Source of the DNA: Okamejei kenojei
Taxonomy: Eukaryota
Direction of reading: 5' to 3'
Assembly (NCBI GenBank): GCA_035221665.1
Contig: CM069150.1
Coordinates: 37,138,001-37,202,000 of the forward strand
DNA: 64,000 nucleotides
This document shows positions 31,551-56,029 of the stretch, in pieces. A program made the position numbers and the translations under genes. The notes under the pieces were generated by a model. That model was not told the DNA's origin. It did no database searches and was given only the letters and a program-made list of their open reading frames with translations. Within the stretch, counting starts at the first letter, position 1. Every line of letters begins with the position of its first letter.

Positions 31551-31869
31551 GTTCCAACAGTCTGCACTGGCTGGGAAACGAATGATGACAAAGAAGGGAC
31601 AGGCGATAATGCTGGAAATACAGGAATCTGAAATACAACAAATTCACTCGGAACCATCCAGTTTGAGCTTTGTCATGTGACTCATTTGCCTAGGATTAGA
31701 TCTTTGTTGCTATTTCACATATCCTTCACCTGCATCTTCTAAACACTAGGTACAAATTCTAAATCAAGTTTATTAATCACAGAATGCTGCCTTCCATGGA
31801 AACATCATCAAATTATCTTTGTGCATTCCCTTTGAGCTTTCTGTCCTCCTCATGTTCCCATGCATTGCA

Positions 31870-32160
31870 CAGCACCAAATTCAGGGACAGTTTCTTCCCA
31901 GCAGTTATCAGGCAACTGAATCATCCTACCACTACCTGAGAGCAGTGCTGGACTACTATCTACGTCTTTGGTGGCCCTTGGACTATCCTTGATCGGACTT
32001 TGCTGGCTTTACTTTGCACTAAACTTTATTCCCTTATCATGTATCTATACACTGTAAATGGCTCGATTGTAATCATGTATTGTTTTTCTGCTGACTGGTT
32101 AGCACGCAACAAAAGCTTTTCAATGTAGCTCGGCACACGTGACAATAAACTAAACTAAAT
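31870..32160 (+). mobile_element. LINE 3' tail (Rex1-like); related copies at ~5533-5660 (-), ~35100-35225 and ~48510-48662
   Basis: TTCAGGGACAGTTTCTTCCCAGCAGTTATCAGG (F.DSFFPAVIR), then CTGACTGGTTAGCACGCAACAAAAGCTTTTCA..ACGTGACAATAAACTAAAC. Confidence 0.7.
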
Positions 32161-32477
32161 TCAATTAAAAAATGAGATGCAAAATTAGATTTCGGCAGGG
32201 AGTTCCGAATATGAATGGCCCACTCAAACTTTAGCTTTCCTGCTTTTGCCTCTTCATCCTGTTTATTTGTATCCTCTTTCTCTACTGCCCCTTCTTCAGT
32301 CCCCTTGCCTTCATGTTTTTCTCCACTTCCTTCCATTTTATGCCCTTTGTTATTTAACTCATTTTAGTCACTTTAATTCTCCATCTCACTCCCACTCTGA
32401 CTTCTGGGCCCTTTACCTATTAACTATAACAACTAAACCTAAAGCGAGAGACATAAGGAACTGCCATTGCTAGAATC

Positions 32478-33075
32478 CTGAACATCAGCGCCTCTACTTC
32501 CTGATAAGATTACGGAGAGTCGGTATGTCAAGGAGGACTCTCTCGAACTTCTACAGGTGCACAGTAGAGAGCATTGTGACTGGCTGCATCGTGGCTTGGT
32601 ACGGCAACTTAAATGTCCAGGAGCGGAAAGAAATGCAGAAAGTTGTGACCACTACCCAGTCAATAATCGGCTCTGACCTCCCCACCATCGAAGGGATCTA
32701 TCGCAGTCGCTGCCTCAGAAAGCCAGCCAGCATCATCAAAGACCCACACAATCCTGGCCACACACTCACCTCTCCGTTGCCATCGGGAAGAAGGTACAGG
32801 AGCATGAAATCTGGAACATCCAGGTTCAAGAACAGCTTTTTCCCCGCAGCCATCAGGCTAGTATACACGACATCAAACAAGCTCTGAACAACAACAGTCT
32901 ATTGCACTTTATCTGTTTATTTATTGTGTACATATATGGTCTATGGTATATAGACACACTGAACCTTTATCTCCTGTTCTGTATTATGTTTATATATCCT
33001 GTTGTGCTGCAGCAAGCAAGAATTTTATTGTCCTATCTGGGACACATGACAATAAAACTCTCTTGACTTGACTTG
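32478..33075 (+). mobile_element. Rex1/Babar 3' fragment
   Basis: ORF 32525-32887 NFYRCTVESI..PSGRRYRS..KNSFFPAAIRL; tail AATAAAACTCTCTTGACTTGACTTG. Confidence 0.88.
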
Positions 33076-33784
33076 CAAGCAAAACACAAAGCAACACTTT
33101 GTACCTCAGTAGGTCAGTCAGCATCTCTGAAGAACATGGATGGATGACGATCGGGTTGGAACCCTTCTTTAGACTGATTGTTGTGGGGGGGACACAAAGA
33201 TTGGCAAGTGATAGGTGGATACAGGTGAGGGAGGGTTTATGATTGTCAGATGTTTGGACACAGGTCAGAGATGAAAAGGCAAAAGGTGGCCTCCAGTGAA
33301 TTCCATATTTCTCAGCAGCAATGCATCAGCACAGGTCCGGAAACACACAAACAGTTCTGTACAAAACCACCACCAATATCAGGGATATTCAGCCCATTAT
33401 TTAAAATTTCTGGTTCTTTAACAGAAACAATATGTCCTGGGTTTAACTTTCAGAATATGTAAATGCATGGTAATAAATACTGCAGATTTAAAATGATGTC
33501 CTCCTCTTTAGTTATGCTTCCCTTTATATAACAGTGAACCAATACTGCCCTCTACTGAATTTTGTTTATCGGTTCTTTGAAAGAAATAGTGCAATTTTGG
33601 TGCTATCTACAGTATCATACCACATGATGGCACTCTTTCAATTAGCTTATAAACAAATAACTGGCTAATGCTTGGTACCTATGAACGTATGTTGAAATCC
33701 ATGCTGAAACATGGATGCTGCCAGACCCGCTGAGTTACAACAGTACTTTGTTTTTTTTTGTAAACCGGCTAGATAGGGTTCACC

Positions 33785-33941
33785 AGCTAGATAGGGCTCT
33801 TAAAGATAGCGGAGTCAGGGGATATGGGGAGAAGGCAGGATCGGGGTATTGATTGGGGATGATCAGCCATGATCACATTGAATGGCGGTGCTGGTTCGAA
33901 GGGCCGAATGGCCTACTCCTGCAGCTATTGTCTATTGTCTA
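33785..33941 (+). mobile_element. CR1 3' tail
   Basis: GGGATATGGGGAGAAGGCAGG..GGCCGAATGGCCTACTCCTGC followed by CTATTGT repeats. Confidence 0.8.
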
Positions 33942-35229
33942 TAATGTAAACAAAATCTGGTTCATCTACCAAAAATATTTGATTTGCAATCTTGGGAAAG
34001 TAACATTTATTTGTCCTTTGGTTAAGGAGTAGATATTGGTTAGCTCCCTTGCTCCTTACTTAATATTACCATGGGATATTTTTGGATGGCCTGGCAGGGG
34101 AGTTGTAGCTTTGGTTCAGTTTTTCAACTGAAAGATATCACCGAATGTCCAAATGCTATTAAAAATGGGCCAACAAAACCATCAACACCAAACCTGAAGT
34201 GCAAACATGTGCACTGCTAGAAGCGGTCACTGGATAGAAACCCATCTACAAACCTACCTTGAGTGTGAAGGTCAACTAATGGATTTCTATCCTAATCCTA
34301 TTGGGTCAGTGTTCTAGACATAGGTCAGGGAACAGAATTTCACGGCATACAAGCATGTTAATCTGACACCATGACTGTGCTGGATGCTAACGAGTCAAAT
34401 AATTGATCGTATTTCCTTGCACTTTCCCAATGCCTCCTATTTTCCCCTCTCTTCCCTATGCCCCATCCAGGCGTGCACCCATTCCTCCCACTATCCCACT
34501 CCCCCCTTTTCCCTTGTGCCCGTTCTCTTCCTATCACTTGCCAGGCTTTGTCCCAACCCCATCACTTTTCCAGTTTTCTCCTCTCCTAAAACAAATAATC
34601 TGAAGAATGGTCCTGATCCAACGCATCGCCTATCCATGTCCTGAAACATGGATGTTGCCAGACCCGCTGATTAACTCCAACACTTTGTTTTTTTAAAAAA
34701 AAAAAAAAACAGCATTGTACTTCTTTGTTTGTCTCTTCTTCTATAGGATGTTTCTTCCTTCATTTTTAAAATAACCTGCGTATAAAACAATCTAGCAATG
34801 TTCCTTGGGAACTTATCAACACACAGACTAATGGAAAGTGTTTCCTGTTTCACTTTGTCCACTCAGCAATGTTTTGATTCTATGCATTTTAACTGTCTGC
34901 TTGATGAGTGTTGGGAACTTCTAAGCAGAAGGTTCACCAGTTGAATGGCATGATGACCATCATTAGATAAAACGGATTCATCGCTCCTTCCTCTCACTCA
35001 GCAATGATGGACAACCAATAAAAGACAATTGTAAGTTATGGTGATTCAGGGTAGAATTACCTGCAGCTGCACGTGTAGGTTATTCTCTTTATCATGCATC
35101 TGTACATTGTGGGCGGTGTGATTGTAATCATGCATAGTCTTTCCGCTGACTGGATAGCAGGCAACAGAAAAACCTTTCACTGTACCTCGGTATACGTGAC
35201 AGTAAACTAAACAACAGTTTAGTTTCAAC

Positions 35230-36340
35230 AGCCTACAATTTCCCAGATTATTCCCTTTTGCTTTCTAAAATAAAAAAACAACATCAGCTTCTCTCCAGCA
35301 CTCCGTCCTTGCCTGTGGCTAGTGGAGATGCAAGGTCTTTGTCAATGACCCACAATCTCTTGGGTTGCTTCTCTCAATAATCTGGTAGGGTTCCCATCAC
35401 CCCCTGTGGATCTATGCATCTTAATGCTCCTCAAGAGACCCAACACTACTATCTTGTTGAGGTTGGGACTAATCCACGTTGAAGAAACGGTTGGATAGAT
35501 ACATGGATAGGACAAGTTTGGAAGGGTATGGAGGGGCAGTCAGGTGGGACGAGTGTAGCTGGGACATGTTGGCCAAAGTGCCTGTTTCAACACTGTATCA
35601 CTCTATGACAATCTCTTTCATGATCTGAAACTGCCCCATCATATTGGTGTATCGCACACTAACCTCACTATCCTCTTTGTCCTTCTCCTTGGTGAATAAC
35701 AATGCAAAATACTCATTTAGTAACGAATCTTCATCCTCTGACTCCAAACATAAATTCTCTCCTTTATTCTTGAGTGATCCTACCCTCTCCCTGGTTACCT
35801 CTTTGTTTTTAATGCATGCATAAAAAGCCCTGGAATTCTCTTTAATCCGACTTGCCAAATACATGTCATGAACGCTTTGACCTACCTACTTCCTTGTTTG
35901 AGTTTGTTCCAGCTTTCTGTACACTTGACTTAGAGTCTTGACTCTTGACTGTTATATTCTTCAATGCCCCGACCCATATCGTCTTCCTAAAACTTACATA
36001 TGCTCCTTATTACTTTTTGACCAAATGTTACAACTTCTCGTCATCCAAGTTTCCCTTACTTTGCCATCCTCGTTCCTGCTTCTTACGGACATGCCAGTTC
36101 TGAACTCTGATCAACTGGGCTTTAAACAACTCACACATATCATATGTGGATATATCCAGTAACAGATGCTCCCAATTTATTCTACCTAGCTGCGGCCTAA
36201 AGATGTTGTAATTTGCCCTCCCCCAAGTTAGTACTTTCTCCCCAAGATCCAGACTTGTCCTTATTCATAATGGTCTTAGTGGTCACTATTCCTAAAGTGT
36301 TCTCATACTGAAATGTCAGCCATCTGGCCAGGCCTGGCCT
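35230..36340 (-). mobile_element. Old CR1 internal fragment, with a short CR1/HER1 tail at ~35470-35605
   Basis: ORF 35598-35864 LASRIKENSRAFYACIKNK..LLNEYFALLFTKE is the CR1 ORF2 linker. Confidence 0.7.
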
Positions 36341-36342
36341 GC

Positions 36343-36720
36343 AGGGATCTCATTGAAACTTACAGAATAATGAAAGGCTTCGATAGAGTGGATGTGGAAA
36401 GGATGTTACCACTGGTGGGAGAGTCTAGGACCAGAGGTTACAGCCTCAGACTTAAAGGGCGCTCTTTTAAAAAGGAGGTGAGGAGGAACTTTAGTCAGAT
36501 GGTAGTTAATCTGTGGAACTCTGGCCACAGAGGACTGTGGAGACCTTCAGTGGATATTTTTAAGATAGACAAATTCTCGATTAGTGTGGGTGTCAAGGGT
36601 TATAGGGAGAAGGCAGGAAAATGGGATTAAGAGGTAGAGATCAGCCATGATTGAATGGCGGTGTAGACTCGATGGGCCAAACGGCCTAATTCTACTCCTG
36701 TAACGTGAGTTTGTGAACTT
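36343..36720 (+). mobile_element. CR1 3' fragment
   Basis: DLIETYRIMKGFDRVDVERM..SRTRGYSL. Confidence 0.85.
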
Positions 36721-38463
36721 GTTTCCCAATACAAGGTCCACTATGGGAAGTGCAAAACCACAAAGAGGATTGAGCAAAATAACGACCATTTTAAATTAGG
36801 GAATGAGGAAGCTAAAAGTAGTTCAGCAAGAAGAAGAGATGGGTTAATGGGACGTGCAAAATAGGTTGTGAGTAGCGCAGTGTGTATGAGCTAGAGATCA
36901 TAGTGTAAAAGATTGGAGAGTGACAAGGACTGTTGACTTTTGACACAAAGTGCTGGAGTAACGCAGCGGGTCAGGCAATATCTCTGGAGGAAAATAATGG
37001 GCAATGTTTCATGTCGGGATCCTTCTTCAGACCTACAGAACTGTTGACTATTCAAGATAATGGACCTTGACAAAGGGAATGTGGTTCAGAAGTCAGCTGG
37101 GGATCTTTTGGAAACTGTTTGTGCAGAGTCTGGCTCAATCCTTGTGCAGTAGAAAATGAAATTGACATGTTGGCTCTAAATTGGGTCTCATCCAAGATTA
37201 ATTGGCATAGAATCATTGGGGCAGCACAGACAATGGATGAAGCTGTGGTGCAGAGGTGGGGCTAGGTGTGGATAGCACAAATGTGGAAACTGAGCACACA
37301 GAGGTATCAGGTCAACAAATCCTGATATAGATCAACCTGATTTTACTGACTGTGGCAGGCAATCCCAATATCTTCACCGGCATTGAGCCATTTAAACCAT
37401 AATAAAATTTCCATATTTATGCACATAGATTCTGGGAATTAGATTCCAGGCAGACTCCACCTCGCCCCACTACAGTCTACATTTCACCCACCTAAGGAAT
37501 CTAATGGTAGAGCTAATTTCTTTCAGAAATTCCCACATGCCCTGTTGAGAAACTGCCACTAGCATCCTGCAAAATTCCCACCTAATTTCCATGATGATGC
37601 AAAGCTAGTGGATCATGAAGCAAAAGAAAAGGTAACTTTAAAATGTATTTCATTATTGATCTACTTCATGTTTAATAGTTTACAAATGTCTCTATCAGAG
37701 TCATTTAAATACAGTTAACTTCAATTAATGTCTTGAATAGAAGACAAAACTAAACTGCATACCTTACTTTGCCTTCTTCTAAATCTCATCAGGAACGCTT
37801 TGGGGCAGAGACTGCATTTCTGTGGTCTATTCTGGTCTGGATTAAATTCCAAATGCCATCGTTCTGCCCAGCTTTCCAGCTAATCTAAGTCTCACTGTAT
37901 CCTTAGACAACCTTCTTCACTATGTACAACTGTACATATTTTCAAATTCTCAGCAAATGAATTAATTATCCCGCTTACATTCTCATTCAAATCATTTGTA
38001 TGTAATAATAATATTCAACATTTTTAGAGAATTGCCAAAGGTGGGGTGGATTGAATAATTTATGAAGAAATGTTTTATGAACAAAATGGTACTATAACAA
38101 CATTTAAAAGATATTTGGACAGGTATATGGAGAGGAAAGGTTTCGAGCGATATGGACCAAACATGGGAAGATGGGACAGGTGTAAATGGGGCATCTTGGT
38201 TGGCATTGGCAAGTTGGGCTGAAGGGCCTGTTTCCATGCTGTATGGATCTACGGCTCTTTGACTCCATCACTCTAATTGTATCACAAAGTTTTGGATTAT
38301 AAATCAAAAGTTATGACTTCCAGTGGCGCTATGGAGAGCTAGAGGGTAACGCCAGCCAGCTCCTCGTAAAAAACGGAGAAAAATCGGGGAGAACCGATCT
38401 ACCTGCTGCCTGCTGTCTCTGCACCGATTGCTGTGAGTGACGTCATCAGGCGCACGGCTTACT

Positions 38464-39511
38464 ATGTCTACACAGCGCAGCCCACCCATGGATAAACCGA
38501 AAAGGAGGGCTACCAGGCTGAAACCGGGAGAAGGCTCGACTGAAGCCGCGGGCTCAGGTAGGACGTTATCCCAAGAAGATGTGACGAAAAAAACAACGAA
38601 AAAATCGGAAGGTGAAGAACTTAAAACTTTTATTGCATGTGAAGTTGCTGGTTTAAGGGAAGAAATAAAGCTGATGAATGTTGGTGAAGAAATAAAAAAA
38701 AATCAAGGAGGAAATGAAGGACTTAAAGCTTGAAATTAATACCAACTTTAATACCACGACTAAGAATACATCGGATGATTTGAAGAAAGAAATCGCAGAA
38801 ATAATGATTGGACTGGCAAAGGAGACGAATGATAAAATCAAAAATGTGAAAACTGATTTTGAAGAAAGGCTGAATCCTGTGGAACAGGCACTGAACCAAC
38901 AGACGATTGCCATAAAAGACCTTGAAGAACTAGCCAAAACAAGTGCTCAGACCACAGCAACGCTTATTACAGAAAATCAATGTCTAACTGAATTACTGGG
39001 CAAAATAACCGAGAAATGTACTGAATTGGAAGGTCGCCAGAGAAGACAGAACCTAAGAATTGCGGGTATTCCAGAAGGGAAAGAGAAAGATCAAGATCCC
39101 CGAGAATTCACTGCAAATTTACTGCAAAATGTTTTATCTCTGGATCAAAAGCCTTTACTAGCCGGAGCACATAGAGCGATGAGACGTCAAACAAGACCAA
39201 ACGCTCCCCCAAGACAAATGATAATAAAAGTACAGTACAACCACGTCTTGGAGGAGATAATGCAAAAAACATCAAGAAACAGAAGTCTTGCATTTGAAAG
39301 GCACAGGATCAGTATTTATCGAGACTATCCAGCAGAGATCTCCAGGAAACGAAAAGCGTTTAATGAGACTAAAAGTATCTTGAGGGAAGTGGAGAATTTG
39401 AAATATGGTCTGAGCTATCCAGCTACCCTAAGAGTCACTTACAACAAGAAGGAGCATTATTTCACCAATCCTGTGGAAGCATTGGACTTTGCCCAGAAGA
39501 TTAAGGCTTGA
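38464..39511 (+). pseudogene. L1 ORF1 (coiled coil, RRM, CTD) with a frameshift near the A-run at ~38695
   Basis: LEGRQRRQNLRIAGIPEG, AHRA, ISIYRDYP..ISRKRKAF, YGLSYPATLRV. Confidence 0.88.
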
Positions 39512-41931
39512 GAGGATGCTTGATGCCTCACCATTGAATAAACTGACTTTGCAGGACTGGATGGAATTGAAGTGGTGACTAAGGAAGCTGGAGAAAGATG
39601 TGGATCGGAAACTCTCCCATGGATACTAATAATTAGTATAACTGCACTACTAATAAAAATAACTAATAAATACTAAAATTATACCATGGTATCTTTACTA
39701 ATCAGAATTAATAATTATCACTGATGACTAATGTTTATTTATAATGGAATGATTAGAGTCAAATGTAGAGTTTGTTTTCATTTGTCCTGTTTGGAAACCT
39801 TCTTTCCTTTTTACTAGTAATTTTCATTTTTATTTTCTTTTTCCCTTTCTTTTCGTTTTTTTTTAAAATTAGGTTTTCAAACAAGTTTTAAATATATGTA
39901 TCCTCACATTTCAGACTATTGTAACCCGAATATTTTAAAATTTAATATCCCCAGTAAAATATTGCTATGGAATAAAAATTCCAAGAAACAAAGGAGCTGG
40001 TTAAGTTCATAATATCAACTACGGAAGTCGGTAGATGGTTAGCCATGCTAGTATGGCTAGCACTAACTACACTAATACTAGATGTAGTTTTTTCCTTCTT
40101 TGTGCACAATACTAATTTCTTAACCTATCCTCTTTTCTTCTCTATTATAAACTATCATTATTATTTTCAGTTTGAATGGAGTTACAAATTGGATCAAAGG
40201 AGATATACACGTGAGAGACATTCAAGGGTCTTAACATTCGTCTATTCGGAGTTCAGGTGCAAGGTCGGGTGTGTCGAACTGAACCATTGACTCTATTATA
40301 GACCCCCATAGACAAAAGATGCAAGATTTATAAATGAATACGGGGAATGAAGGAATAACGTTTTGCAGCTGGAACGTTAAAGGTATTAATGAACCAATTA
40401 AGAGAGGTAAAATATTAGCACATTTAAAAGCTGATGTGATTTTCATTCAAGAAACACAGTTAAAAAAAGATGCCGAGCATAGGCTGAAAGCTAAATGGAT
40501 AGATAAAACGTATCATTCTTCTTTTACACACAAATCAAGAGGCGTAGCAATATTATTTCGTAAAGGCACTTTATTCAAACATACATCAACTATAACTGAT
40601 AATGATGGCAGATACATTATTGTAATAGGAGAATTAAATGCACAAAAAATGATTTTTGTCAATGTATATGAACCAAACTTTGATAGTCCACTGTTTTTTA
40701 AGAAAATATTTAACAACATCCGGAAATAGCACAACCTAATTTAATAATTGGAGGAGATTTAAATTGTACATTAGATTCCTATTTAGACAGATCCACAAGA
40801 CAAAGGAAAACCAAATTCCATTCCAGTGACTTATTAAATGCATATATGGATACTAGTAATATTAAAGATGTTTGGAGCGTAGAAAATCCAACTGGACGAG
40901 AATATTCATTTTATTCACCTGTACATGAAACCTATTCAAGAATAGATTATTTTTTGGTTGACGCTAAACTTATCTCACTCACTTATAATTCAAAATACCA
41001 TAATATTACAATCTCAGATCACGCACCTTTAACATTTATGATTAAAATAAATGGTAAAACGGAAAAACGGGGACAATGGAGATTTAATCCACAAATTTTA
41101 AAAAACAAAGCTACTCAGGAATATATTATAGAACAGATCAAGATTTTCTTTGAAATAAATGATAAACCGGAAATATACTCTTCCCTATTATGGGAAACTT
41201 TTAAAGCATATACCCGTGGAATTATGATTTCTTCTCAAGCATGTTATAATAAAATGAATCGGAGGGAACAACAGGAATTGGAAAAGGAGATTAAACAATT
41301 AGACACAGAGAACGCTGCTAATCCATCCATAACAACACATAATAAAATCGCTGCACTGAAATATAAATTAAATAAAATATACTCAGATCACGTTGTAAAA
41401 CTCTATCAATACACTAAACAATTACAATTTGAATTTGGAGATAAACCTCAAAAATTATTAGCTCGTCAATTAAGAAAGATGGAGGGAGAAAAAATAATCC
41501 ATAGGATTAAATCATATAATGGCAAACCATTAGTACAACCTAAAGATATTAATGAGAGATTTTTGCAATATTGTAAACATTTATATTCAGCTAAAACGAC
41601 CGAAAACAGGATAGGAATAGAAGCATTTTTAAAAAAATGTAATCTGAATGGGTTGGATTCACACAATAGAGAATCACTAAATGCTGAAATTTCAGTAAAA
41701 GAAATCGAAGAATCTATCAGATTATTAAAAACTGGTAAAACACCGGAACCAAATGGTATTGGCTCAGAATTTTATAAAATATTTTATGATCTGATTGCAC
41801 CACGTCTGAAGATACTCTAATGAATACATTTATACTCACCAGAAACTAGCAGAAACGTTAAATGAATCTATTATAACACTTATACCTAAAATAGACAAAG
41901 ATCTGGATGACCCAGGATCATATAGAGCTAT

Positions 41932-44170
41932 GGGGGTTACACAAAAGGCTGGAGAAACTCAGCGGGTGCAGCAGCATCTAAGGAGCGAAGGAGATAGGCA
42001 ACGTTTCGGGTCGAGACCCTTCTTCAGACTGGTCAGGGAAACAAGAGATATAGACGGTGATGTGGAGAGATAAAGAACAATGAATGAAAGATATGCAAAA
42101 AAGTATCGATGATAAAGGGAACAAGCCATTGTAAGCTGTTTGTGGTGTGTAAATGAGAAGCTAGTGCGACTAGGGTGGGGGAGGGAGATAGAGGGAGAGG
42201 GAATGCCAGGGCCCGAGGGCTGAGGGAGAGGTGGAAAGGGGAGGAGACAGCAAGGGTTAACAGAATTGAGAAAATTCAATGTTCAAGCCCAAAGGATGCA
42301 GACTCCCCAAGCGGAATATGAGGTGCTGTTCCTCCAACTTGCGGTGTTGCTCACTCTGGCCGTGGAGGAGGCCCAGGACCGAGAGGTCGGATACGGAATG
42401 GGAGGGGGAGTTGAAGTGCTGAGCCACCGGGAGGTCGGGTTGGTTTTTGCAGACCGAGCGGAGGTGTTCGGCGAAACGATCGCCAAGCCTCCGCTTGGTC
42501 TCACCGATATAGATCATCTGGCATCTGGAGCAGCGGATGCAGTAGATAAGGTTGGAGGAGGTGCAGGTGAACCTCTGTTGGACCTGGAAGGACTGCTTGG
42601 GTCCCTGAAAGGAGTGGAGGGGGGAGGTGAAGGGACAAGTGTTGCATTTCTTGCGGTTGCAAGGGAAAGTGCCCGGGGAAGGGGTAGAGCGGGAGGGGAG
42701 GGAAGAATTGACAAGGGAGTTGCGGAGGGAGCGGTCTTTGCGGAAGGCAGACGGGGGGGGGGGGGGGGGGAGATGGGAAGATGTGGCGGCTGGAGGGGTC
42801 ACGTTGGAGGTGGCAAAACTGGCGGAGGACTATGTGTTGTATTTGCCGGCTGGTGGGGTGAAAGGTGAGGACCAGGGGGACTCTGCCCTGTTTGCGAGTG
42901 GGGGAATGGGGAGAGAGGGCAGTGTTGCGGGGTATGGAGGAGACCCTGGTGCGACCTCATCAATAGTGGGGGAGGGGAATCCCCGTTCTCTGAAGAATGA
43001 GGCCATTTGTGATGACCTGGTGTGGAACACCTCATCCTGGGAGCAGATGCGGCGTAGACGAAGGAATTGGGAATAGGGGATGGAGTCCTTATAGGAAGCA
43101 GGGTGGGAGGAAGAGTAGTCCAGGTAGCTGTGGGAGTCAGTTGGTTTGTAGTGGATGTCGGTCAGGAGTGTATCACCTGCAATAGAGATGGTGAGGTCAA
43201 GGAATGGTAGGGAAGTGTCGGAAATGGTCCAAGTGTATTTGAGTGCCGGATGGAAGTTGGTGGTGAAATGAATGAAGTCAGTCAGTTATGTGTGGGTGCA
43301 GGAGGTGACACCAAAGCAGTCGTCGATGTAATGGAGGTAGAGGTCGGGGATGGGGCCCTGGTACGCCGAGAACAAGGATTGTTCAACGTACCCAACAAAG
43401 AGGCAAGCGTAGCTGGGGCCCATGTGTGTGCCCATAGCTACGCCTTGTGTTTGGAGGAAATGGGAGGAATCAAAAGAGAAGTTATTGAGGGTAAGGACAA
43501 ACTCCGCTAGGCGGAGGAGGGTGTCAGTGGACGGGTATGGGTTGCTCCTCTGGTCGAGGAAGAACCGGAGGGCTTTGAGACCGTCCTGGTGGGGGATGGA
43601 GGTGTAGAGTGACTGGACGTCCATGGTAAAGATGAGAGGATGGGGGCCTGGAGAATGGAATGCACGGAGCCGATGGAGAGTGTCTGAGGTGTCTTGAACA
43701 TAGGTGGGGAGGAATTTAACAAAGGGGGATAGGATGGCGTCAAGGTAGTAGAAATGTGTTCAGTGGGGCACGAACAGGCAGAGACAATGGGTCTGCCAGG
43801 GCAGTCGGGTTTGTGGATTTTGGGGAGAAGGTAAAATCGGGCCGTGCGGGGCTGGGAAACGATGAGGTCGGAGGCTCGGGGGGGGTAGGGAGCCGGAGCT
43901 GATGAAGTCGGTTATGGTGCTCGAGATGGTGGCCTGGTGTTCGTCAGTGGGGTCATGGTCCAGGGGTAAGTAGGAGGAGGTGTCCGAGAGTTGGCGCGCG
44001 GCCTCCGCTTTGTAGAGATCGACGCGCCAGACTACCACGGCACCTCCCTTGTCGGCGGGTTTGATAACCCAGTCTGGGTTGTTACGGAGTGAGTCGATGG
44101 CAGTACGTTCGGGGCTGGAGAGATTGGAGTGAGACAGGGGAGTGGAGAAGTCGAGGCGGTTGATGTCCCG
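41932..44170 (-). mobile_element. Penelope (Poseidon-like) retroelement, 5'-truncated: RT, GIY-YIG endonuclease and 3' repeat
   Basis: IKPADKGGAVVV, MDVQSLYTSIP, GVAMGTHMGPSYA, YIDD, NLIYCIRC..YIGETKRRL..RFAEH; 10-bp TSD ATAGAGCTAT (41922-41931 and 44171-44180). Confidence 0.95.
42000..42027 (-). ncRNA. Minimal type-I hammerhead ribozyme motif, best-preserved copy
   Basis: Minus strand reads CUGAAGA-A-GGGU(CUCG)ACCC-GAAAC-GUU: core, helix II, palindromic AACGUU helix III and an NUH site. Confidence 0.7.
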
Positions 44171-47100
44171 ATAGAGCTATAGCTCTTTTAAATACTGATC
44201 AAAAGATACTAACCAAAATATTAGCACAAAGACTAAGTACAGTTATTAATAAATTAATTCACCCCGATCAAACAGGATTTATACCAAAACTATATTCCTC
44301 ACATAACCTGAGACGATTATACAATATTATATATTCGAAAAGAGGTATTAATAAAGACCTAGTAATTATTTTGTTAGATGCGGAGAAAGCCTTTGACCAG
44401 GTGGAATGGTCTTACTTGGTTTTGGTTATGGAAACTTTTAAGTTGGGAGAGAAGTTTATTACTTGGGTTAAATTATTATACACTAATCCAACAGCCAGAA
44501 TAATAACAAATCAAATGCTATCAACTAAATTTAATCTATCTCGAGGCTGCAGACAAGGTTGTCCTTTATCCCCACTACTGTTTGCACTTGCAATAGAACC
44601 ATTAGCTCAACGTGTGAGATTACATCCTGAAATATATGGGTATGACACCAGAGATACCGAAAATAAAATCTCCTTATATGCGAATGATGTATTACTTTAT
44701 ATTACAAAACCGGAAATTAGTATCCTAAATTTACTAAAATTATTAACTGAATTTGGATTATTTTCAGGATATAGTATTAATTGGAATAAAAGTGAACTTA
44801 TGCCAATAATGGTAAATAACTTACATATATTACAACAATTTCCTTTTAAGATAGCAAACAAAAAAATCAAATATCTTGGAATTTATGTAACAAAAAGATT
44901 TGATTCTTTATTTAAATCCAATTTTCCACTCTTATTGAATAAATTAAATAAGAACATTTTATAATGGAAAACACTACCCAGCTCAATGCTAGGTAGAATT
45001 AATGCAATAAAAATGATTTTTCTTCTGCAATTACTATATCTTTTCCAATTGATTCCGATATATCTTCCTAAAAATTTCTTTAAGAAGGTGGATTCTATAG
45101 TCATCAACTTTATCTGGGATTATAAGAGCCATAGAATAAATAAAAAACATTTATGTAAATCAAAAATAAATGGAGGTCTAGCACTGCCAAACTTTATGTT
45201 TTATTACTGGGCAGTTAATATTAAAAATATGAATTTTTGGTTAGTAGAGACAGATAAACAACCAATCTGGTTAAAAATGGAAAAAGAAGATTGTTCGCCT
45301 TTTGAAATTAGTTCGATTTTATTCGCCAATATTTAAACTAGGTAAGAAAATCTATAGTGAAAACCCTATAATAGAAAGTGGAATGCGTATCTGGAAACAA
45401 ATAAAGAAAATATTAAAATCGGAATGTATACCCCTAGCCCTTACCATTGTAAATAACATTACATTTAAACCCTCAATGATGGACAAAGGTTTTTTACAAT
45501 GGAAAAACTATGGAATTAATAAGATGGGCGATCTCTACAGGGAAAATTCTTTCCTTTCATTTCAAGAATTACAACAAATTTATGGATGACATTCAAAAGA
45601 TTACTTTAGATATTTACAAATTAGAGACTACGTAAAAGCAAACACACAGGAAATTAGAAATAGAAAGACAGAAATTTTAGATGAATGTCTAAATAAACAC
45701 CCGAACATAGAAAAATTGATATCATATATTTATAATATTTTATTGGAAAACGATGTCCCAATGACAGAAATATATAGGCAATCATGGGAAAACGAATTAG
45801 GTAAAATCATTAGACCTGAAGTATGGGATGAAAGTTTACAACATATACACCACTGCTCGTTAAATGCTAGACACTCTCTTATACAATTTTAAATATTACA
45901 TAGACTACATTATTCAAAATCCAAACGACATAGTATTTTTTCAAATGTATCTGCCATATGTGATAAATGTCAACACTTAGAAGCTAACTTAACGCACTCA
46001 TTTACAAATTGTGTAAAAATTACTAAATTTTGGACAGAAATATTTAAGATAATTTCGAATGTTGTTAATATGAATCTGATCCCTGACTCAAAGTTAATAA
46101 TACTGGGAATATTAGAAACAGATCAATTAATAACAACGAATCAAAGAATGTTTATTGATTACAGTTTAATAATTAGGAAAAAGTTAATATTGAAATTCTG
46201 GAAAGGTCCTACATCCCCCACAATCAAAATGTGGATTACAGGAATGTCGGAGACACTTCATCAAGGAAAGATTAAGGCTTGTCCTACTCCACAAGTTGGA
46301 TCTTTTCAGAGGAATATGGTCTCCATTTATTGAATATCTAAAGGGTCAAAATGGCTCGGTGTGAGAGCCTGACTAAAGCCGGAATAATGGAATAGATGAA
46401 GAATCACGTATAACAAATCATGGATATATCTCCAATGATGGATAACTTTTTTAATACTCCACTCATTTCTTTATTTTTGATTTCCTACTTTTACTTTATT
46501 TTTCTCTATCTTTTTCTACCTGCAAAAAAAATGTATAGAAATATATAAGACATAATTGTTAATATTAATAATATTACGAATGTATGTGAGAAGTATATTC
46601 TATTAATATGTACTTACGTCTAATAAAAATATTTAACAAAAATAAATCAAAACTTATCCTAGGATTACATGACTTTTGAGTCATCAACGCACAGGTTTTG
46701 TGCATGCCACCAGTAATAATGATTGGTTATTATTGTCCAAACTCATCTAAACCTAATTTGTATTGCCACTGATTGTACAAGGTGAACACTTTGTGAAGCA
46801 CTGGAGTCCTTAGCCCCTGCTATTTGCACTACAAAGATTTATTTTACTTCTTCATGCAGGTTACTTGAGCATTTACAACAGACTAAACTGGTTGTACTCG
46901 TTTTACAAACGGCAAACATATTTTCAGACTACTGCGAGCCAGAAATATGCAAAAGTACCATATTTTTAGAATCCATGAACTGATGTCCAGTCTCATAATT
47001 ATTGTGAGTCAAAAAGCAAGTTTAAAATAAAATTCAAGCCGCAGTCTAAAATGGTTAAATTTGTCAATAAAACAAGAAATGTTAATCCAGATTATTAGAA

Positions 47101-47829
47101 AGTAATTTTAGTTACCACCCTCAAAAACAAGAAACATTATTCATGCTGCTGTAGTTCTTTCCTCTCCTGATGCACCCTTTTTTTGATACTTTGTTAGTGC
47201 ATTAAATCAGGGTCCAATGATTTCAAAAGTAATCTTGTGCCTACAATGTAAAAGTTGCTGCTTCGGTAGTGCTTTGGAGAACGCAAACTAGAAATATCAT
47301 TTATAAGGACTATATTAAGTGTTTTATGAATCACTATATTTCTGCTTTGTTCTGTTTTAGAGCTTTAAAAAAAAAACTCACACTGAGAAAGGATAGCTGG
47401 ATGGAGCTCAACAGCGCCAATGTGGTTGAAGAAAGAGTTGCAGCCGTACCAGAAATAGTTTGTGCAACCGTCTTCACCTACTTTATCATTGGTTCTTACA
47501 TCATCGTTATACATGGTGGTGTTTGCTCATGATTGCACAATGTTCAATTATAATTACTGAAAAATATAGAATTCTGCATGCATGCATGCAACAAAAACCA
47601 GACGCCTTTCATGCACGGGCTGATAAGTGATGAGTAATGTTTATCCCAAACAAGTAACAAGCAATAGTATAGCATTTATTTACCTTCCCATCACATTCAA
47701 CAGTATATCTATTGCTGAACTCCTCAACCAGTAATATCCTAGAGGTCTTAATTGATCAGAAACTTAACTGGACCAACCACATAATTACTGCAGCTATAAG
47801 GTCATGGCCTGTGCTGCAGTTATGGACTT

Positions 47830-48050
47830 ATCTTCCAATACCATTTTGTGTTTCCTTCATCATCATTACTTTTGTGCATATTTTTCATTCATTTGTTCTA
47901 TCTCCCTCTATATCACCATCTATATTTCTTGTTTTCCTTTCCCCTGACTCTCAACCTGAAGAAGGGTCTCGACCCGAAACGGCACCTATTCCTTTTCTCC
48001 AAAGATGCTGTCTGACCTGCTGAGTTACCCCAGCTTTTTGTGTCTATCCA
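47830..48050 (+). mobile_element. Penelope 3' end with hammerhead motif (47956-47983; GUC changed to GGC)
   Basis: CTGAAGAAGGGTCTCGACCCGAAACGGCACC and the shared tail. Confidence 0.8.
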
Positions 48051-48149
48051 AGACCATTTTGCTATGTGAAAGGCACAAGTCAGGGATATGATATATTACT
48101 ATATCGCCTATGTGGATGAGTGACCAGGGAAATTAGAGAATTAATTCTT

Positions 48150-49680
48150 CATTGAGTGTAACTTCAACCTGACAATGATGAAGGCCAAGGACAGAACGAT
48201 TGCTATGGGAATGGGAGGGGGGTGTTAAAGTGGTTAGCAACCAGAAGATGCAGCAGGTCTTGGTGGAAAGAGCGCAAGTATTCAGTGAAACGCTTGCCGA
48301 GTGTGCTCTTGGTCTCACCGATGTCAAGGAGGTCACATCAGGAGCACCGAGCAGCAGTAGACGGGGTTTGAAGAGGTGCATGTGAACATCTGTCTCACCT
48401 CGAGGGGCTGCTGGGATCCCTGGATGGAGGTGAGGGAGGAGGAATCGGGTCCTACGGTTGCAGGGGAATGTACCTGAGGATGGTGCAGTTTTGGTGTGGT
48501 GGGGCTTTGCTGGCTTTACTTTGCGCTAAAAGTTGTTCCAATATCATGTATCTATACATTGTAAAATTATCGATTGTAATCACGCATTGTCTTTCTGCTG
48601 ACTGGTTAGCACGCAATAAATGTTTTTCACTGTACCTTGGTACACGTGTCAATAAACTAAACTGGGCTTATAGTCACTGGAATTTAGGATGAGAGGGGAT
48701 CTTATAGAAACCTATAAAATTCTTAAAGGGCCTGTCCCACTTGGGCGACCTAATCCTCGAGTTCTGGCGAATTTGCCCTCGACTCATACTCGCAGCATGG
48801 TTGACACGAGATTGTAGGAGGTCTTCGTAACTCTACTTCATGCTCGAGAGTGGTCTCCGCGTACTCGAGACCTCAGCTAGGTTGCGGCGTTTTTTTCAAT
48901 ATGTTAAAAAATGCCCGCGAGTAGAAATAGGTCGCCATGGAAAAAATCGATACTTTTTTTACTCGTAGGTTTAGTCGTAGTAGGTAATCGCGGGTAGTCG
49001 TTGATAGTCTTCATCATAGTCGAAGGGAGGTCGAAGGAGATCGAAGGAGGTTGTCTTCACTCTCCACTGTCCAATTTTCCCGAAGTTAGTCGTAGCTGGT
49101 CGTAGCTAGTTGAAGGAGGTCGAAGGAGGTCTTCAACATGTCATTTTTTAAAAACGCTTCTAAACTCGCCAATTTGGTCGCCCAAGTGGGACAGCCCTTT
49201 AAGGGGTTGGACAGGCTAGATGCAGGAAAGAAAATTCAAGATGTTGGGGGAATCCAGAACCAGGGGTCACAGTTTAAGAATAAAGGGTAGGCTATTTAGG
49301 ACTGAGATGAGGAGAAACCTTTTCACCCAGAGTTGTGAATCTGTGCCACAGAAGGCAGTGGAGGCCAATTCACTGGATGTTTTCAAGAGAGAGTTAGATA
49401 TAGCACTTAACGCTAACAGAATCAAGGGATATGGGGAGAAAGCAGGAACCCTGTACTGATTTAGGATTATCAGCCATGTTCATATTGAATGGCGGTGCTG
49501 GCTCGAAGGGCCGAATGGCCTACTCCCGCACCTATTTTCTCTGTTTCTAAACTGAACTGGAGTAAAAAGGGATGAGTGAACCAAGGAGCTGTGGGAGTGA
49601 AGTCTGCGGAATGGGGTGGGAAAAGAAAGATATGGCTGGTGGTGGGATCATGTTGAAAGTGGTAGAAATGTCACAAAAGG
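48150..49680 (-). mobile_element. Old Penelope fragment carrying nested LINE tail, CR1 3' end (48667-49548) and a MITE
   Basis: GIY-YIG-like text at 48150-48480 resumes near 49560; CR1 text AAAATTCTTAA|GGGGTTGGACAGG is split by the MITE. Confidence 0.65.
48727..49199. mobile_element. PIF/Harbinger-type MITE
   Basis: TIR AGGGCCTGTCCCACTTGGGCGACC / GGTCGCCCAAGTGGGACAGCCCTT; TAA TSD supported by the uninterrupted CR1 text at 15250-15270. Confidence 0.88.
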
Positions 49681-49779
49681 TCAACTTAAATGCTACCCCA
49701 TCTTTACATTAAGCATTTACTCCTCTCATCTCTATATTGTGACTGCAGTATGCATCAATTGGAAAACTAATTGGAGTTA

Positions 49780-50148
49780 TGCCCCTGTCCCACTTAGGAG
49801 ACCTAAACAGCAACCTCTGGTAACCTTGCCCGCCACCCAAAAAAAAATCAAGGTCGAGGTGACCTGCAACCTCCTCCCACCTCCCATGCATATGTTGAAA
49901 TCCTTCCTCGACTATGACCTGCGACAAAAAAATTATCGATTTTTAAAACGGCAACCTATTTTTAGTCGAGGCCGGTTTTAATCATGATGAAAAAATAACA
50001 GCAACCTAAATGAAGCCTCGACCACGCGAAAACCACTTTTGACCATTGGGGAGAGTGACCAAAACCTCCGGTGACCTCATGGAAACCTTGGGTGGCGGGC
50101 AAGGTCACCAGAGGTTGCTGTTTAGGTCTCCTAAGTGGGACAGGGGCT
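49780..50148. mobile_element. PIF/Harbinger-type MITE with ~60-bp TIRs
   Basis: GCCCCTGTCCCACTTAGGAGACC..CCACCCAA and its reverse complement; TTA TSD. Confidence 0.88.
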
Positions 50149-50690
50149 TTATGAATCTGGGCTATTCTGACAGCACCTCCCACACTCGTGGCCTCCAACA
50201 TAAGAAATTAATAAAGGATTCACTTGCATGTGGACACAAATCATATACTAACTTGGAAATACATTGTCAGTTTTGCAATATTGCTGGATCTAAATCCTGG
50301 AGCCCTCGCCACAACAGCAACATGTGATTCCCTCTACAGAGAGCAGCTCGCCACTGCCTTGCAAAGGCAATAAATTCTCATCTTAATAGCGACATGAAAA
50401 ATGAATAAAAAGGATAGTAGCAAGTATATGTAGGAGGAACCTGCCTGCAGAGTGGCTAAAATGTGGACTCTTCAGCCACATGGAAAGTAATAACGTGGGT
50501 ACATTTAAGGTGAACATGCAAATTAAACGGAAAGAGTGCTGGGGATATGGAGACTCATGAGGAGCATAGATATCAGTACAGGCTGGTTCGAGAGAATAGC
50601 CTGCTTCTGTGCTTAAATTTTATGCTCATTCAAGAATTTTACCTTTCCTTTCAATCCTATTTTACACTCGGAGCTATTATTGACAGTGGA

Positions 50691-50860
50691 AGGTATACAA
50701 AAATGCTGGAGAAACTCAGCGGGTGAGGCAGCATCTATGGAGCGAAGGAATAGGTGGCGTTTCGGGTCGAGAACCTTCTTCAGTCTTGCCTCACCCGCTG
50801 AGTTTCTCCAGCATTTTTGTCTACCTTCGATTTTCCAGCATCTGCAGTTCTTTCTTAAAC
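50691..50860. mobile_element. Penelope-derived fold-back mini-element, 170 bp
   Basis: 15-bp TSD ATTATTGACAGTGGA (50676-50690 and 50861-50875); inverted arms; hammerhead motif on minus at ~50756-50783. Confidence 0.88.
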
Positions 50861-51111
50861 ATTATTGACAGTGGATATCTGGTTACCACATACTGTTGAC
50901 AGGAACTCTTGTTCCTTTAAGCATCCCTCACCATAGAATACCATTGTCATGGTGCAGGATTCTCAAAGGAAACCCCACAAAGAACTGCATGTGCTGGAAT
51001 CTTGATCTAAAGTGTGTTTTATTGTCAATTCAAGGCTGATACTATACATAAGCTGGCTTTCCTGCTGGCAACTATTGAGACTGCCTTAGGGCAGGCCTGA
51101 GTTTACAATAG

Positions 51112-51500
51112 TAGAAGCAAGGAACCGCAAATGCTGGTTTACATTAAAAAAAACACAAAATGCTGGAGTAACTCAGTGGGTCAGGCAATACCTCTGGAAA
51201 AAAAGAATGGGTGACGTTTTGGGTCAGGGGAGAGGGAGTCTAGAGATATGGAAGGTAAGGTGTGAAAACGACAAATCACAGCAGACGCTGCTCAAGGAAA
51301 TGTAGAATGGTTCGTTCTTGGCTGAGGGGAAGGTGACAACGAGGCGTACAATCAGTTAAATTAATCAGGAGGACAGTGAAACCAGTCAAACAACTAGGGT
51401 GGGGGAGGAACGGAGGGGGAGGGGGAGTGGGAAAGCAAGCGTTGCTTGAAGTTAGAGAAATCAATATTCATACTGCTGGGTTGTAATGTGCGTTTGGTCT
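51112..51500 (-). mobile_element. Penelope 3' fragment directly upstream of DPM1
   Basis: Shared tail AAGGAACCGCAAATGCTGG..GCTGGAGTAACTCAG and reverse ORF end GAGAAATCAATATTCATACTGCTGGGTTGTAA. Confidence 0.75.
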
Positions 51501-51579
51501 CACCCTGACAGGTTGGTGAAATTGTGTGTTGGGAGCCTTCTTGAGTTGACAAGGTTGGGTTTGTAGAAACTCAGACATT

Positions 51580-52120
<541 letters not shown>

Positions 52121-53252
52121 CTCACAACTTCTGCTGGCAGAGGGAGGAGACCATCACCGCTCCCTCTGAAGAAGGGTCTCCACCCGAACCTCCACCCATT
52201 CATTTTTTCTCCAGAGATGCTGAGTTATTCCAGCATTTTGTGTTTATCTTTGGTGTAAACCAGCACCTGCAGTTCCTTCCTACACATCACTGCTCCCTCA
52301 CTGACTGGACACAAGCAACTGCACACCCTGAAATCTTGAGCATAAAGCACAAAGTGCTGGAGAAACTCAGCGGGCCAGTATCTAAGTCTCAAGAAGGGTC
52401 CCGACTCGAGACGTCCCCTATCCATATTCTCCAGATATGCTGCCTGACCGGTAGAGTTATCCCAGCACCTTGTGTTTTTTTGCTCACTCAAAAAAAACTG
52501 TTACCCTTCAAACACCACAACAACTGATGCCAAAATGGGGAGGGGACCGAAAGACTGTTACAATCCTTTGATCAAGACCTTTCCCAGCAGGTCCCACATT
52601 GTTATTCAACAAATTAATAACTTCCCCTTTAAGTTGTTGACTGCCAAACATTGCACTTCTTGTGGGATCTTGCAATTGTCAAGTCAGGGAAGTAAATAGC
52701 CAAGGATGGAAATAATGGTTGCAGGGATGATCAACGCCGGTATCACTGATTTTTAGTAATGACTCGAACTGTTTGATTTTTAGAATCTTACAGGATAAAT
52801 GTCTACTTTATGTAGACAGCGAACATTTATTGTCAATGCCAAATGGGCTGTTTGAGGAGGCGATTAAGAGTCAACCATGTTGAAAAGTCTGAAGTTGCAT
52901 GTTGATAGATCTGATAAAAATCTGTTCCAAATATCAGTCTAAACTTTCCAATCTGGATCGAACAATTTACTTTCTCCTGCAATTGGAACAGAGCTCTTCC
53001 TTTAAGGACATTCCTTAAAACCTGTCACTTTAACCACGATTTTGTGCACAAATCTTAAAATCTACATTCAGCTTTAATGATCTTCCCGTTAAAGGTGCAT
53101 AAAAGTTGTTAATAATCAACTTTCTATTCCACTCCATACCTTAACAACCTGTGTAATATTATCATGAGATAGGTGGATGCCATTTACCCCTCAGACTAGG
53201 AAGCAGTGTTGACCAAGCTATTCTCATGATCAGCATAATGAAGGTTCACTTA

Positions 53253-53832
53253 AGGGCCTGTCCCACTTGGCTATCTTATGCGCGCCATTTACACGACCTA
53301 GTGTGTGGACGCATGTAGTGGTGTGGAAGAGTGTGGAGCGGCGTGGAGGAGTATGGACTTCGTCCTGCATGAAATCTTCACGCGCCACTGGCCTGTCGCA
53401 TAACTGACGGCCAAAGTGAGACAGGCCCAAGACCCTGGCGGGGCGCGACGTCTCATCTCCAACAGCAGCAGAAGCAGGCAAACGATCGCTGAGCTCGGCC
53501 TGGGGCTCACGGCCATTGCGGATCTGGATCCGCCCCCACTTCTACTCCCAGAGCGGGGCCAGACGTTTGGAGATGGACACAAAATGCTGGAGTAACTCAG
53601 CGGGACCGGCAGCATCTCTGGAGAGAAGCAGTGGGTGACCTGAAACATCACCCATTCCTACTCTTCAGAGATGCTGCCGGTCCCGCTGAGTTAGTCCAGC
53701 ATTTTGTGTCCATCATCAAATGACGTCACGCGCTCCAGACGGCTGTGCGGACGCATGATGACTCGCCATGACCGTCGTGCGCCAGTTACTACCGGCCTGT
53801 CGCGTAAATGACGGCCAAGTGGGACAGGCCCT
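53253..53832. mobile_element. PIF/Harbinger-type MITE containing a Penelope-derived hairpin (~53570-53712)
   Basis: TIR AGGGCCTGTCCCACTTGGC / GCCAAGTGGGACAGGCCCT with TTA and TAA flanks; extra internal copy of the right end at ~53390-53428. Confidence 0.82.
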
Positions 53833-54819
53833 TAAGTCACTCCCAGACCACAGATTGGAACCTTGAGCAAATAAACACCAAGTGCTGGAGTAACACAATG
53901 AACACTGAACATAGAACAGTACAGCACAAGAGCAGGCCCTTTGTCCTACAATGTAAGTACCGAACATTATCTCCTGTCTTTCTGCATATAATCTATATAC
54001 CTCCATTTCCTGCATATCCATATATCTATCGATCCAAAAGCCTTTTAAATGCCAATATCATACCTGCCTCAACCATCAGCTGTGACAGTGTGTTCCAGGC
54101 ACTCATCACCCTCTGTTTAAAAAAAACATAACCCCTGCACATCTCCTTTAAACTTTGCCCATTTCACCTTAAACTATGTCCTCTAGTATTTGATTTTTCC
54201 ATCATTGTCCTAGGCATCAACTTGCTTCTACTCCATGTCCTTGCTTCTACTCCAGTTTTTTGGGTTATGAGATGGTAAATGGGACCAATGAGCTAAGTAC
54301 AGACATTTTCAAGGACAGGGCAAGAGGTGGATAATGAGCAGGGCAGGTGGGTTGTCCTTTGACTATGAGGTAGTGTGTTTTTTACCAAAGCATATATAAA
54401 ACTTTGTGTTCCGAATGCATGGCCTCAACATTCTCAATACCACCCCGAATGCTCCTTTTTTTATTTTAAGTGATCATGGACCTGGGGTTCCAAGGAGTCC
54501 GTGGGAATGGTGAACTTCGTCAAGCACGCTTGGTGCACATCCACAAATATTTCTCTTTGTCCATGAGTAATCTAGTACGACAGAGTTGAGAATAACCTGG
54601 GTCTATTTTAGGAGTCTGCACAACGTAGTATATTGTATTTTCCAGCTTCCGTTGTATCAGTTTTTTAGATAGATCCCCAAAATTCTTTAACAGGAATATT
54701 AATGAAAATTTGAGAATTTTAAACATCATTGAAACTATATGTGCACATGACATAGAAACATAGAAAATAGGTGTAGGAGGAGGCCATTTGGCCCTTCGAG
54801 CCAGCACCGCATGTGTTGT

Positions 54820-55730: not shown

Positions 55731-56029
55731 GTGTCCATGTTCCTTGTGTTTCCCTTTTTTCTTTATATCTTTATATAATGGTTTTTCCAAATATGTTTTG
55801 ACTAAATGCAGTATTTTAAGCTGGGAATAAAATATATTTCTTATCCCCATTAATTTGTAGCAACAGAGCATAGGGAAATTTTCTTCAGTATTAGAAATAT
55901 TCCAAAGATTCCGTTTTAATTAGTTAATTATTACCTTGCCTCTGAAATAGAAAGTTATGAGCTTCTGTCCTAGTTTATGAGTTGAGAATTTCATGTAGAC
56001 GGTATGGTATTGATGAAGGTATACATTGT

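What the first reader, a model, noticed from the sequence alone, without database searches (positions are those of the whole stretch)
41985..42040. Minimal hammerhead ribozyme in the 3' repeat of a young Penelope; ~20 relatives across the window
Seen: the minus strand reads CAGU-CUGAAGA-A-GGGU(CUCG)ACCC-GAAAC-GUU-GCC. Related motifs occur near 303, 6512, 7180, 10410, 10450, 17643, 18592, 19525, 19700, 20450, 31335, 31457, 33148, 37003, 47956, 50756, 52166, 52388, 56182, 61810 and 61839, and helix II varies (TCTCGA, TCCCGA) while mostly keeping pairing. Established: Penelope-like elements carry minimal type-I hammerheads whose short palindromic helix III forms in dimers, and an extra A after A9 is tolerated in some natural hammerheads. 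Inference: this genome holds roughly one such motif per 3 kb here, most of them mutated. Helix I is very short, so activity is uncertain.
Basis: partly seen in the sequence, partly recalled or inferred. Interest (0 to 1): 0.7.

Follow-up and report, generated by a model that had tools for sequence, protein, structure and literature searches.

The report
Penelope hammerhead, copied uncut
This is the small self-cutting RNA motif already known from Penelope-like jumping genes, present in roughly a million mostly decayed copies in this genome; young copies begin just before the motif rather than at its cut site, so they were likely copied from uncut RNA that likely starts there.

Summary
The motif is real. 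A minimal type-I hammerhead sits at 42029-41998 (minus) in the end repeat of a broken, 5'-truncated Penelope-like element (41935-44170, Neptune/Nematis-type linker). All 21 relatives named are there; a profile finds 35 in the window and 670 in 1.54 Mb sampled genome-wide (about 1.2 million by extrapolation, roughly 11% intact). This is a known kind (PMC4209133). Corrections: variation lies in loop II, the stem shows no covariation, helix I is 2 bp, the focal GUU is likely CpG decay of the family's GUC, and most relatives are 95-130-base insertions, not element ends. The added point: of 76 young copies chosen only on sequence 3' of the cut site, none starts at the cut site; 51 start between -7 and +18 of the core, peaking at -5 to -2. 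They look like copies of an uncut RNA that begins at the ribozyme's edge. Cleavage and the RNA start are untested. The scan has noted this pattern before, in this genome and in others.

The parts
41998..42029 (-). Minimal type-I hammerhead: 2-bp helix I (42029-42028 with 41999-41998), core CUGAAGA 42027-42021, extra A 42020, 4-bp helix II with CUCG loop 42019-42008, GAAA 42007-42004, palindromic A-C-G-U 42004-42001, U17 at 42000; predicted cut between 42000 and 41999
42027..42032 (-). Edge where most short copies of the family begin (-5 to 0 of C3); initiator-like CCAGU; inferred RNA start
   Evidence: loose ends at the same place in four public runs
41935..41999 (-). 65-base tail 3' of the cut site, ending at the short 3' end (+92). 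Siblings have a second end about 35 bases further on. Inferred start sites of reverse transcription
   Evidence: analogy to PMC11167929
42031..42256 (-). 3' untranslated region, pyrimidine-rich, differs between subfamilies
41935..44170 (-). 5'-truncated Penelope-like element with frameshifts and stops: RT (RVT_1 E 2e-6 at 43286-43759), CX4CXXC linker, GIY-YIG (E 7e-4 at 42257-42829)
18527..19618 (.). Head-to-head pair of two truncated siblings (93-96% identical to the focal element); both hammerhead cores are broken
303..61923 (.). 35 profile hits of the hammerhead-plus-tail unit across the window, on both strands, several as head-to-head pairs (10351-10533, 31276-31544, 50700-50817, 52348-52475, 53577-53709, 61760-61923)

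Best explanation
The motif is the minimal hammerhead of a Penelope-like retrotransposon's end repeat, and the genome's swarm of relatives are likely DNA copies of the front end of an uncut element RNA that likely begins 2-5 bases before the ribozyme core. Shown: the motif lies at both ends of a full-length copy; copies have two fixed 3' ends (+92 and about +127 from C3); most young copies are short, many with 8-17-base target duplications, and their 5' ends pile up at -5 to -2, not at the cut site (+28). Inferred: transcription starts at that edge; the element's protein starts reverse transcription internally at +92 or +127, as shown in vitro for the anole element; when it does so in the 5' repeat it reaches the RNA's 5' end after 95-130 bases and makes a short insertion, and when it does so in the 3' repeat it makes long, randomly truncated copies such as the focal one. 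Inferred: the ribozyme is kept under selection in active master elements and would cut only with help (the element's protein or a second copy), outside the step that makes new insertions. The focal copy is likely an idle passenger.
For: Full-length L161 carries the motif at both ends of a 4.1-kb unit and L162 is a partial tandem. 0 of 30 copies picked on the 65 bases 3' of the cut site start there; 17 are short, from -5 to +12, and 13 are long. 0 of 46 copies picked by an exact 42-base match 3' of the cut site start there; read by eye, 34 start at -7 to +18, 1 at -31 and 11 are long. Pooled 129 rows: 61 at -7 to 0, 32 at +1 to +18, 0 at -30 to -8, 0 at +19 to +28. In the random sample 4 of 586 profile hits begin at +28, no more than at neighbouring columns. 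Target duplications of 8 bases or more in 14 of 61 random rows that start at -5 or later. Among 7 subfamily majority lines the ribozyme differs only in loop II, N17, position 1.1 (A or G, both pair with U2.1) and one CpG site. In the anole element, cutting needs the protein, cutting mutants insert normally and no RNA reads end at the cut site (PMC11167929).
Against: No RNA start or cleavage was measured: only contigs were available. The cap signature is weak: G precedes 16 of 31 starts at -5 to -2 (8.8 expected, p 0.006), but the control (6 of 17) does not differ from it (Fisher p 0.37). The one full-length copy examined starts at about -22, not -3. A few inverted arms start at +28 to +31 (L215, L100 twice, L315, L293). 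No covariation supports the fold, and helix II has a predicted probability of 0.03 or less in three monomers. A cut 3' product would be uncapped and might be lost, so missing copies do not show that cutting is absent.
Confidence: 0.65

Rival explanations
1. The ribozyme cuts precursor RNA in vivo as a dimer and the cut or circularised RNA is the template for new insertions (model of PMC4209133).
For: Core, G10.1-C11.1 and the A-C-G-U palindrome are kept across 7 subfamilies. Dimers of such motifs cut weakly in vitro. 114 of 670 hits have a same-strand neighbour within 300 bases.
Against: 0 of 76 copies start at the cut site and all read through it. The two copies of a full-length element lie 4 kb apart. 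Helix I is 2 bp in 49 of 79 intact motifs. 247 of 670 hits are head-to-head partners, which cannot pair on one RNA. A circle would also read through the site, but would not give the sharp 5' edge.
Confidence: 0.15
2. The fixed 5' edge is not a transcription start but a splice acceptor, or a stop or processing point of the insertion reaction.
For: A pyrimidine tract and CAG precede the core in every subfamily seen. In Drosophila virilis Penelope the intron ends at the 5' side of helix I. Starts trail off to +18 and many are inverted-pair junctions.
Against: Short copies often keep the CAG or AG that would be intron, and show no shared upstream exon. No sense-strand GT-AG joint among the 30 joints displayed (284 more were not displayed). 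A stall at helix II would leave ends at its 3' side (+19), where there are none.
Confidence: 0.2
3. The block is conserved as a promoter or protein-binding element and no longer works as a ribozyme in this family.
For: No covariation, 2-bp helix I, fold not favoured, no Rfam match; tail blocks are as constant as the core.
Against: The pattern of change matches hammerhead rules position by position (loop II, N17 and a U-A/U-G pair vary; core does not). The anole motif cuts with protein help and shows C3/G8 rescue.
Confidence: 0.12

Closest known systems
Minimal hammerheads (min-HHR) of metazoan Penelope-like elements (Cervera and De la Pena 2014, PMC4209133; read main text parts 1-2 of 4, searched 2 of 3 supplements)
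   Same: Type-I core, extra base between 9 and 10.1, G10.1-C11.1 pair, palindromic 15.2-16.2 without loop III, place in both end repeats, most copies single, some pairs on opposite strands.
   Different: Helix II is 4 bp, not 7-8 as in Schistosoma; helix I is 2 bp, as in D. virilis; one near-invariant motif instead of many covarying families; about 140,000 intact motifs by extrapolation against 4,000-9,000 reported for coelacanth and Xenopus. No shark or skate term in the searched supplements.
PAc, Poseidon element of Anolis carolinensis (Frangieh et al. 2024, PMC11167929; read parts 1-2 of 4 and the text of supplements 1-2)
   Same: Hammerhead followed by two fixed 3' ends about 35 bases apart; uncut RNA as the template; no reads at the cut site.
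   Different: There the ORF starts inside the ribozyme; here the first AUG of the long ORF lies about 164 bases after C3, and the linker is of Neptune/Nematis type. A pile-up of 5' ends before the core is not described in the parts read.
Endonuclease-bearing PLEs of the Neptune/Nematis type; inverted pLTR and tail insertions (PMC8557442, PMC3846280; passages)
   Same: RT with C-terminal GIY-YIG, CX2-5CXXC linker, partial tandems, head-to-head repeats, optional 30-40-base tail, target duplications.
   Different: The great majority of copies here are the 95-130-base unit alone.
Non-LTR retrozymes (bioRxiv 10.64898/2026.07.22.740005; read part 1 of 5 and passages)
   Same: Short, non-coding, hammerhead-bearing, derived from PLE end repeats; reported in one chondrichthyan genome.
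   Different: Retrozymes are tandem arrays with a ribozyme in each unit; these are dispersed single or head-to-head insertions that start at the ribozyme's 5' edge.

Membership tests
min-HHR of metazoan PLEs | Core CUGANGA...GAAA with U16.1 and H17 | tested here: met
min-HHR of metazoan PLEs | One extra base between positions 9 and 10.1, and a G10.1-C11.1 pair | tested here: met
   A at 42020 is 95% constant; G-C in 259 copies, G-U (CpG decay) in 65
min-HHR of metazoan PLEs | Palindromic 15.2-16.2, no stable helix III | tested here: met
   C-G in the focal copy and in 6 of 7 subfamily lines
min-HHR of metazoan PLEs | Lies in both end repeats of an RT plus GIY-YIG element | tested here: met
   L161, L162; domains
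min-HHR of metazoan PLEs | Helix I able to form (4-5 bp in Schistosoma, 2 bp in D. virilis) | tested here: inconclusive
   2 bp in the focal copy and in 49 of 79 intact motifs
min-HHR of metazoan PLEs | Compensatory changes among families (supporting, not defining) | tested here: not met
   30 copies; both-side changes at background level
min-HHR of metazoan PLEs | Self-cleavage after N17 as dimer or with protein | not testable with these tools
   no raw RNA reads
EN+ PLE, Neptune/Nematis type | RT followed by C-terminal GIY-YIG | tested here: met
   both Pfam scores are below the curated cut-offs
EN+ PLE, Neptune/Nematis type | CX2-5CXXC linker between RT and EN | tested here: met
   CNRKKCNTC; criterion
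EN+ PLE, Neptune/Nematis type | Placement in the clade by RT phylogeny | not tested
   no reference sequences fetched
Non-LTR retrozymes | Tandem array with a complete hammerhead in consecutive units | tested here: not met
   single or head-to-head insertions with target duplications; the focal copy has no tandem partner
Rfam hammerhead families | Match to a covariance model | tested here: not met
   no hammerhead family among 17 matches at E up to 10

The most novel reading that the evidence does not exclude
The million short copies are a fossil 5' RACE of the Penelope RNA: a capped transcript starts 2-5 bases before the hammerhead core, which limits helix I to 2 bp and keeps the 5' ribozyme off, and internal priming in the 5' repeat turns an autonomous element into a factory of SINE-like stubs with no separate SINE gene. 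Counting 5' ends over the 35,645 near-identical young copies would then measure, from DNA alone, how often cut RNA is ever inserted.
Probability: 0.5. Interest if true: 0.5.

Novelty: new member of a known kind. Interest (0 to 1): 0.3.

Why it matters
The role of hammerheads in Penelope-like elements is stated as unclear in PMC8557442. Here tens of thousands of young insertions record where the copied RNA began and ended. They argue that cut RNA is not what gets inserted, which matches the in vitro anole result in a distant vertebrate, and they point to an RNA start at the ribozyme's edge that can be checked with one CAGE library. By extrapolation the unit makes up about 4% of this genome (1.2 million copies of about 100 bases). 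The ribozyme itself is a known kind, and the focal copy is unlikely to matter on its own.

Tried and rejected
Rfam scan: no hammerhead match. First fuzzy scan timed out and was replaced. Covariation: none. A descriptor search for other, more distant hammerhead families in 1.538 Mb found 0 hits outside this family, so no wider covariation test was possible. Four searches of the own genome with other subfamily tails returned nothing because common words are skipped; they show nothing. Public runs were contigs only; they show loose ends at -3/-4 but these come from genomic copies inside other transcripts and do not map an RNA start; displayed joints gave no sense-strand intron. Pfam found nothing in the 951-aa frame of L164. 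The clustering test (p 0.027) is circular for the flank, because clusters were built on flank columns; one search is the test without clusters. Cap-derived G: suggestive only. An upstream AUG at +49 was considered as the ORF start and rejected: a one-base length difference at about +89 segregates among young copies. Luense et al. 2017 (dimer cleavage) is not held; only its title was seen, in a reference list; one search fetched an unrelated paper. Supplement file 1 of PMC4209133 could not be searched and the supplements of the bioRxiv preprint are closed, so a prior listing of this family there is not excluded.

Full report
Observation. Positions below are counted from C3 of the core (window 42027, minus strand) unless window coordinates are given. 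The predicted cut lies between 42000 and 41999 (+27/+28). In 154 evenly spaced 10-kb stretches of the own genome (1,538,000 bases) it finds 670 hits, about 1.2 million if extrapolated to 2.76 Gb. Of these 670, 375 cover the core, 149 keep it intact and 75 also keep helix II and the 15.2-16.2 pair. A strict descriptor finds 79, all inside family hits, and 0 in each of 5 shuffles. In the window 3 of 35 keep the 11 core letters and only the focal copy also keeps all four helix II pairs. Rfam gives no hammerhead match.

Host element. The motif lies 230 bases after the stop codon of a 5'-truncated element at 41935-44170 (minus) with frameshifts and stops. Pieces match RVT_1 (E 2e-6) and GIY-YIG (E 7e-4), both below Pfam's cut-offs. 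Between them lies CNRKKCNTC, which fits the CX2-5CXXC linker given for Neptune and Nematis elements (PMC8557442, passages); I did not build a tree. Siblings are 94-98% identical. L161 is a full-length 4.1-kb copy with the motif at both ends, its 5' repeat starting near -22; L162 is a partial tandem. The first AUG of the long reading frame lies near +164, so the ribozyme and the tail are in the 5' leader of the next unit. That the host is a skate or ray comes from earlier scan notes and my recall, not from a call.

Is it a hammerhead? It has the features listed for minimal hammerheads of Penelope-like elements (PMC4209133, main text parts 1-2): the core, a base between 9 and 10.1, G10.1-C11.1 and a palindromic 15.2-16.2. 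In 291 near-complete copies, 0 of 10 non-CpG core columns fall below 85% consensus, against 19 of 54 downstream columns (Mann-Whitney p 0.003, Fisher p 0.026); G12 and 15.2-16.2 were left out as CpG sites. Among 7 subfamily majority lines (264 of 314 copies clustered) the ribozyme differs only in loop II, N17, position 1.1 (A or G) and one CpG site. Against: there is no covariation. In 30 aligned copies no helix II pair changes on both sides and the score equals the shuffles. Helix I is 2 bp (49 of 79 intact motifs). The hammerhead fold is 7-9 kcal/mol above the best monomer fold and helix II has probability 0.03 or less; the region folds no better than shuffles. The focal GUU is likely CpG decay: 26 of 26 printed siblings read GUC (3 of 29 were not printed), although U17 is the majority state of another subfamily.

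Where copies begin and end. Young copies end at +92 or about 35 bases further on, like the two internal start sites of reverse transcription mapped for the anole element PAc (PMC11167929, parts 1-2). The longer form folds a stem between the two ends. For 5' ends I chose copies only on sequence 3' of the cut site. Set 1: the 30 best matches to those 65 bases: none starts at the cut site, 13 are long (2 of them from a sister subfamily) and 17 start at -5 to +12. Set 2: the first 46 of 35,645 exact matches to 42 bases: none starts at +26 to +28; after reading by eye, because the ungapped walk stopped at indels in 8 rows, 11 are long, 1 starts at -31 and 34 at -7 to +18. A gapped pool of these sets, the random stretches and incidental copies gave 129 rows: 32 long, 2 at -33 and -31, 0 at -30 to -8, 61 at -7 to 0, 32 at +1 to +18, 0 at +19 to +28, and 2 at +29 and +31. 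The duplicate filter failed there, so at least one copy is counted twice, and 3 of the 61 are long copies of a sister subfamily. In the random sample a few inverted arms start at +28 to +32, and 4 of 586 profile hits begin at +28, as at neighbouring columns. Many short copies have target duplications of 8-17 bases (14 of 61 rows), so they are insertions in their own right. 247 of 670 hits are head-to-head partners. Contigs of four public runs from three coded organisms have loose ends at the same -4 edge.

Mechanism. Shown: fixed 3' ends, a sharp 5' edge at -5 to -2, read-through of the cut site, target duplications. Inferred: the RNA begins at that edge, which matches the vertebrate initiator consensus (recalled, not tested); priming in the 5' repeat gives 95-130-base copies and priming in the 3' repeat gives long truncated ones. 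An RNA that starts at -3 offers only three bases for helix I, which would keep the 5' ribozyme weak. Untemplated G marks capped templates in LINE-1 (PMC4859970, passages). Here G precedes 16 of 31 non-inverted starts at -5 to -2 (8.8 expected, p 0.006), but other starts give 6 of 17 and the two do not differ (p 0.37), so this is a hint only. L161 shows that some templates begin further upstream. The splice-acceptor rival has a precedent in D. virilis, but short copies often keep the CAG and share no exon. In PAc the ribozyme cuts only with the protein, cutting mutants insert normally and no reads end at the site; the pattern here fits that. It does not show that cutting never happens, since a cut, uncapped product may simply be lost.

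Novelty. Hammerheads in these end repeats, single copies and opposite-strand pairs are in print. I found no paper on this family in cartilaginous fish or on the 5' edge: searches, and a supplement search (one file not searchable). Luense et al. 2017 could not be read. Other papers seen: PMC6765202, PMC2377424, PMC3846280, PMC6155905 (passages) and bioRxiv 10.64898/2026.07.22.740005 (part 1 of 5 and passages). After I had written down my reading, the scan's index showed 168 findings with these words in at least 20 genomes and 60 in this genome; several reach the same reading. They are unchecked notes and are not counted as support; they led me to check the Neptune-type linker. Verdict: a new member of a known kind, with one testable mechanistic lead. 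Interest 0.3.

Noticed in passing
window 41931-44171: The Penelope copy sits antisense inside an L1-like element; 177 bases present in the sister L1 copy (11343-14429) are missing at the site, so this insertion likely came with a target deletion rather than a duplication.
   Followed up: partly
L161:4850-4979 (minus); family tail +47 to +127: Long-tailed copies fold a stem between AGAUGCUG and CAGCAUCU that encloses two inner helices; the two 3' ends flank its 3' arm. Candidate binding site of the element's protein.
   Followed up: partly
window 42019-42008: Helix II is itself nearly palindromic; the best two-strand fold pairs it between molecules, so a dimer could form through helix II as well as helix III.
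   Followed up: partly
L142, L146, L155: A sister subfamily with a UUCG loop, a U-G closing pair in helix II and GUU at the cut site shares the focal subfamily's tail.
   Followed up: partly
window 23958-24755 (+): Piece of a tyrosine recombinase (Phage_integrase E 2e-5), likely from a DIRS-like element.
   Followed up: no
window 27818-28429 (+): Piece of a retroelement integrase core (rve E 1.5e-6).
   Followed up: no
window 7935-9512 (-): 525-aa open frame with RVT_1 and ALKBH8_N matches, a LINE-type reverse transcriptase; further ALKBH8_N pieces at 14530-15054 and 32474-32887.
   Followed up: no
window 62571-62702: A 130-base hairpin with long inverted ends, likely a miniature DNA transposon; it draws weak microRNA matches in Rfam.
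   Followed up: no
L200:- and L232:-: Two random stretches share the same head-to-head unit with the same flanks, so the unit was copied as part of a larger repeat.
   Followed up: no
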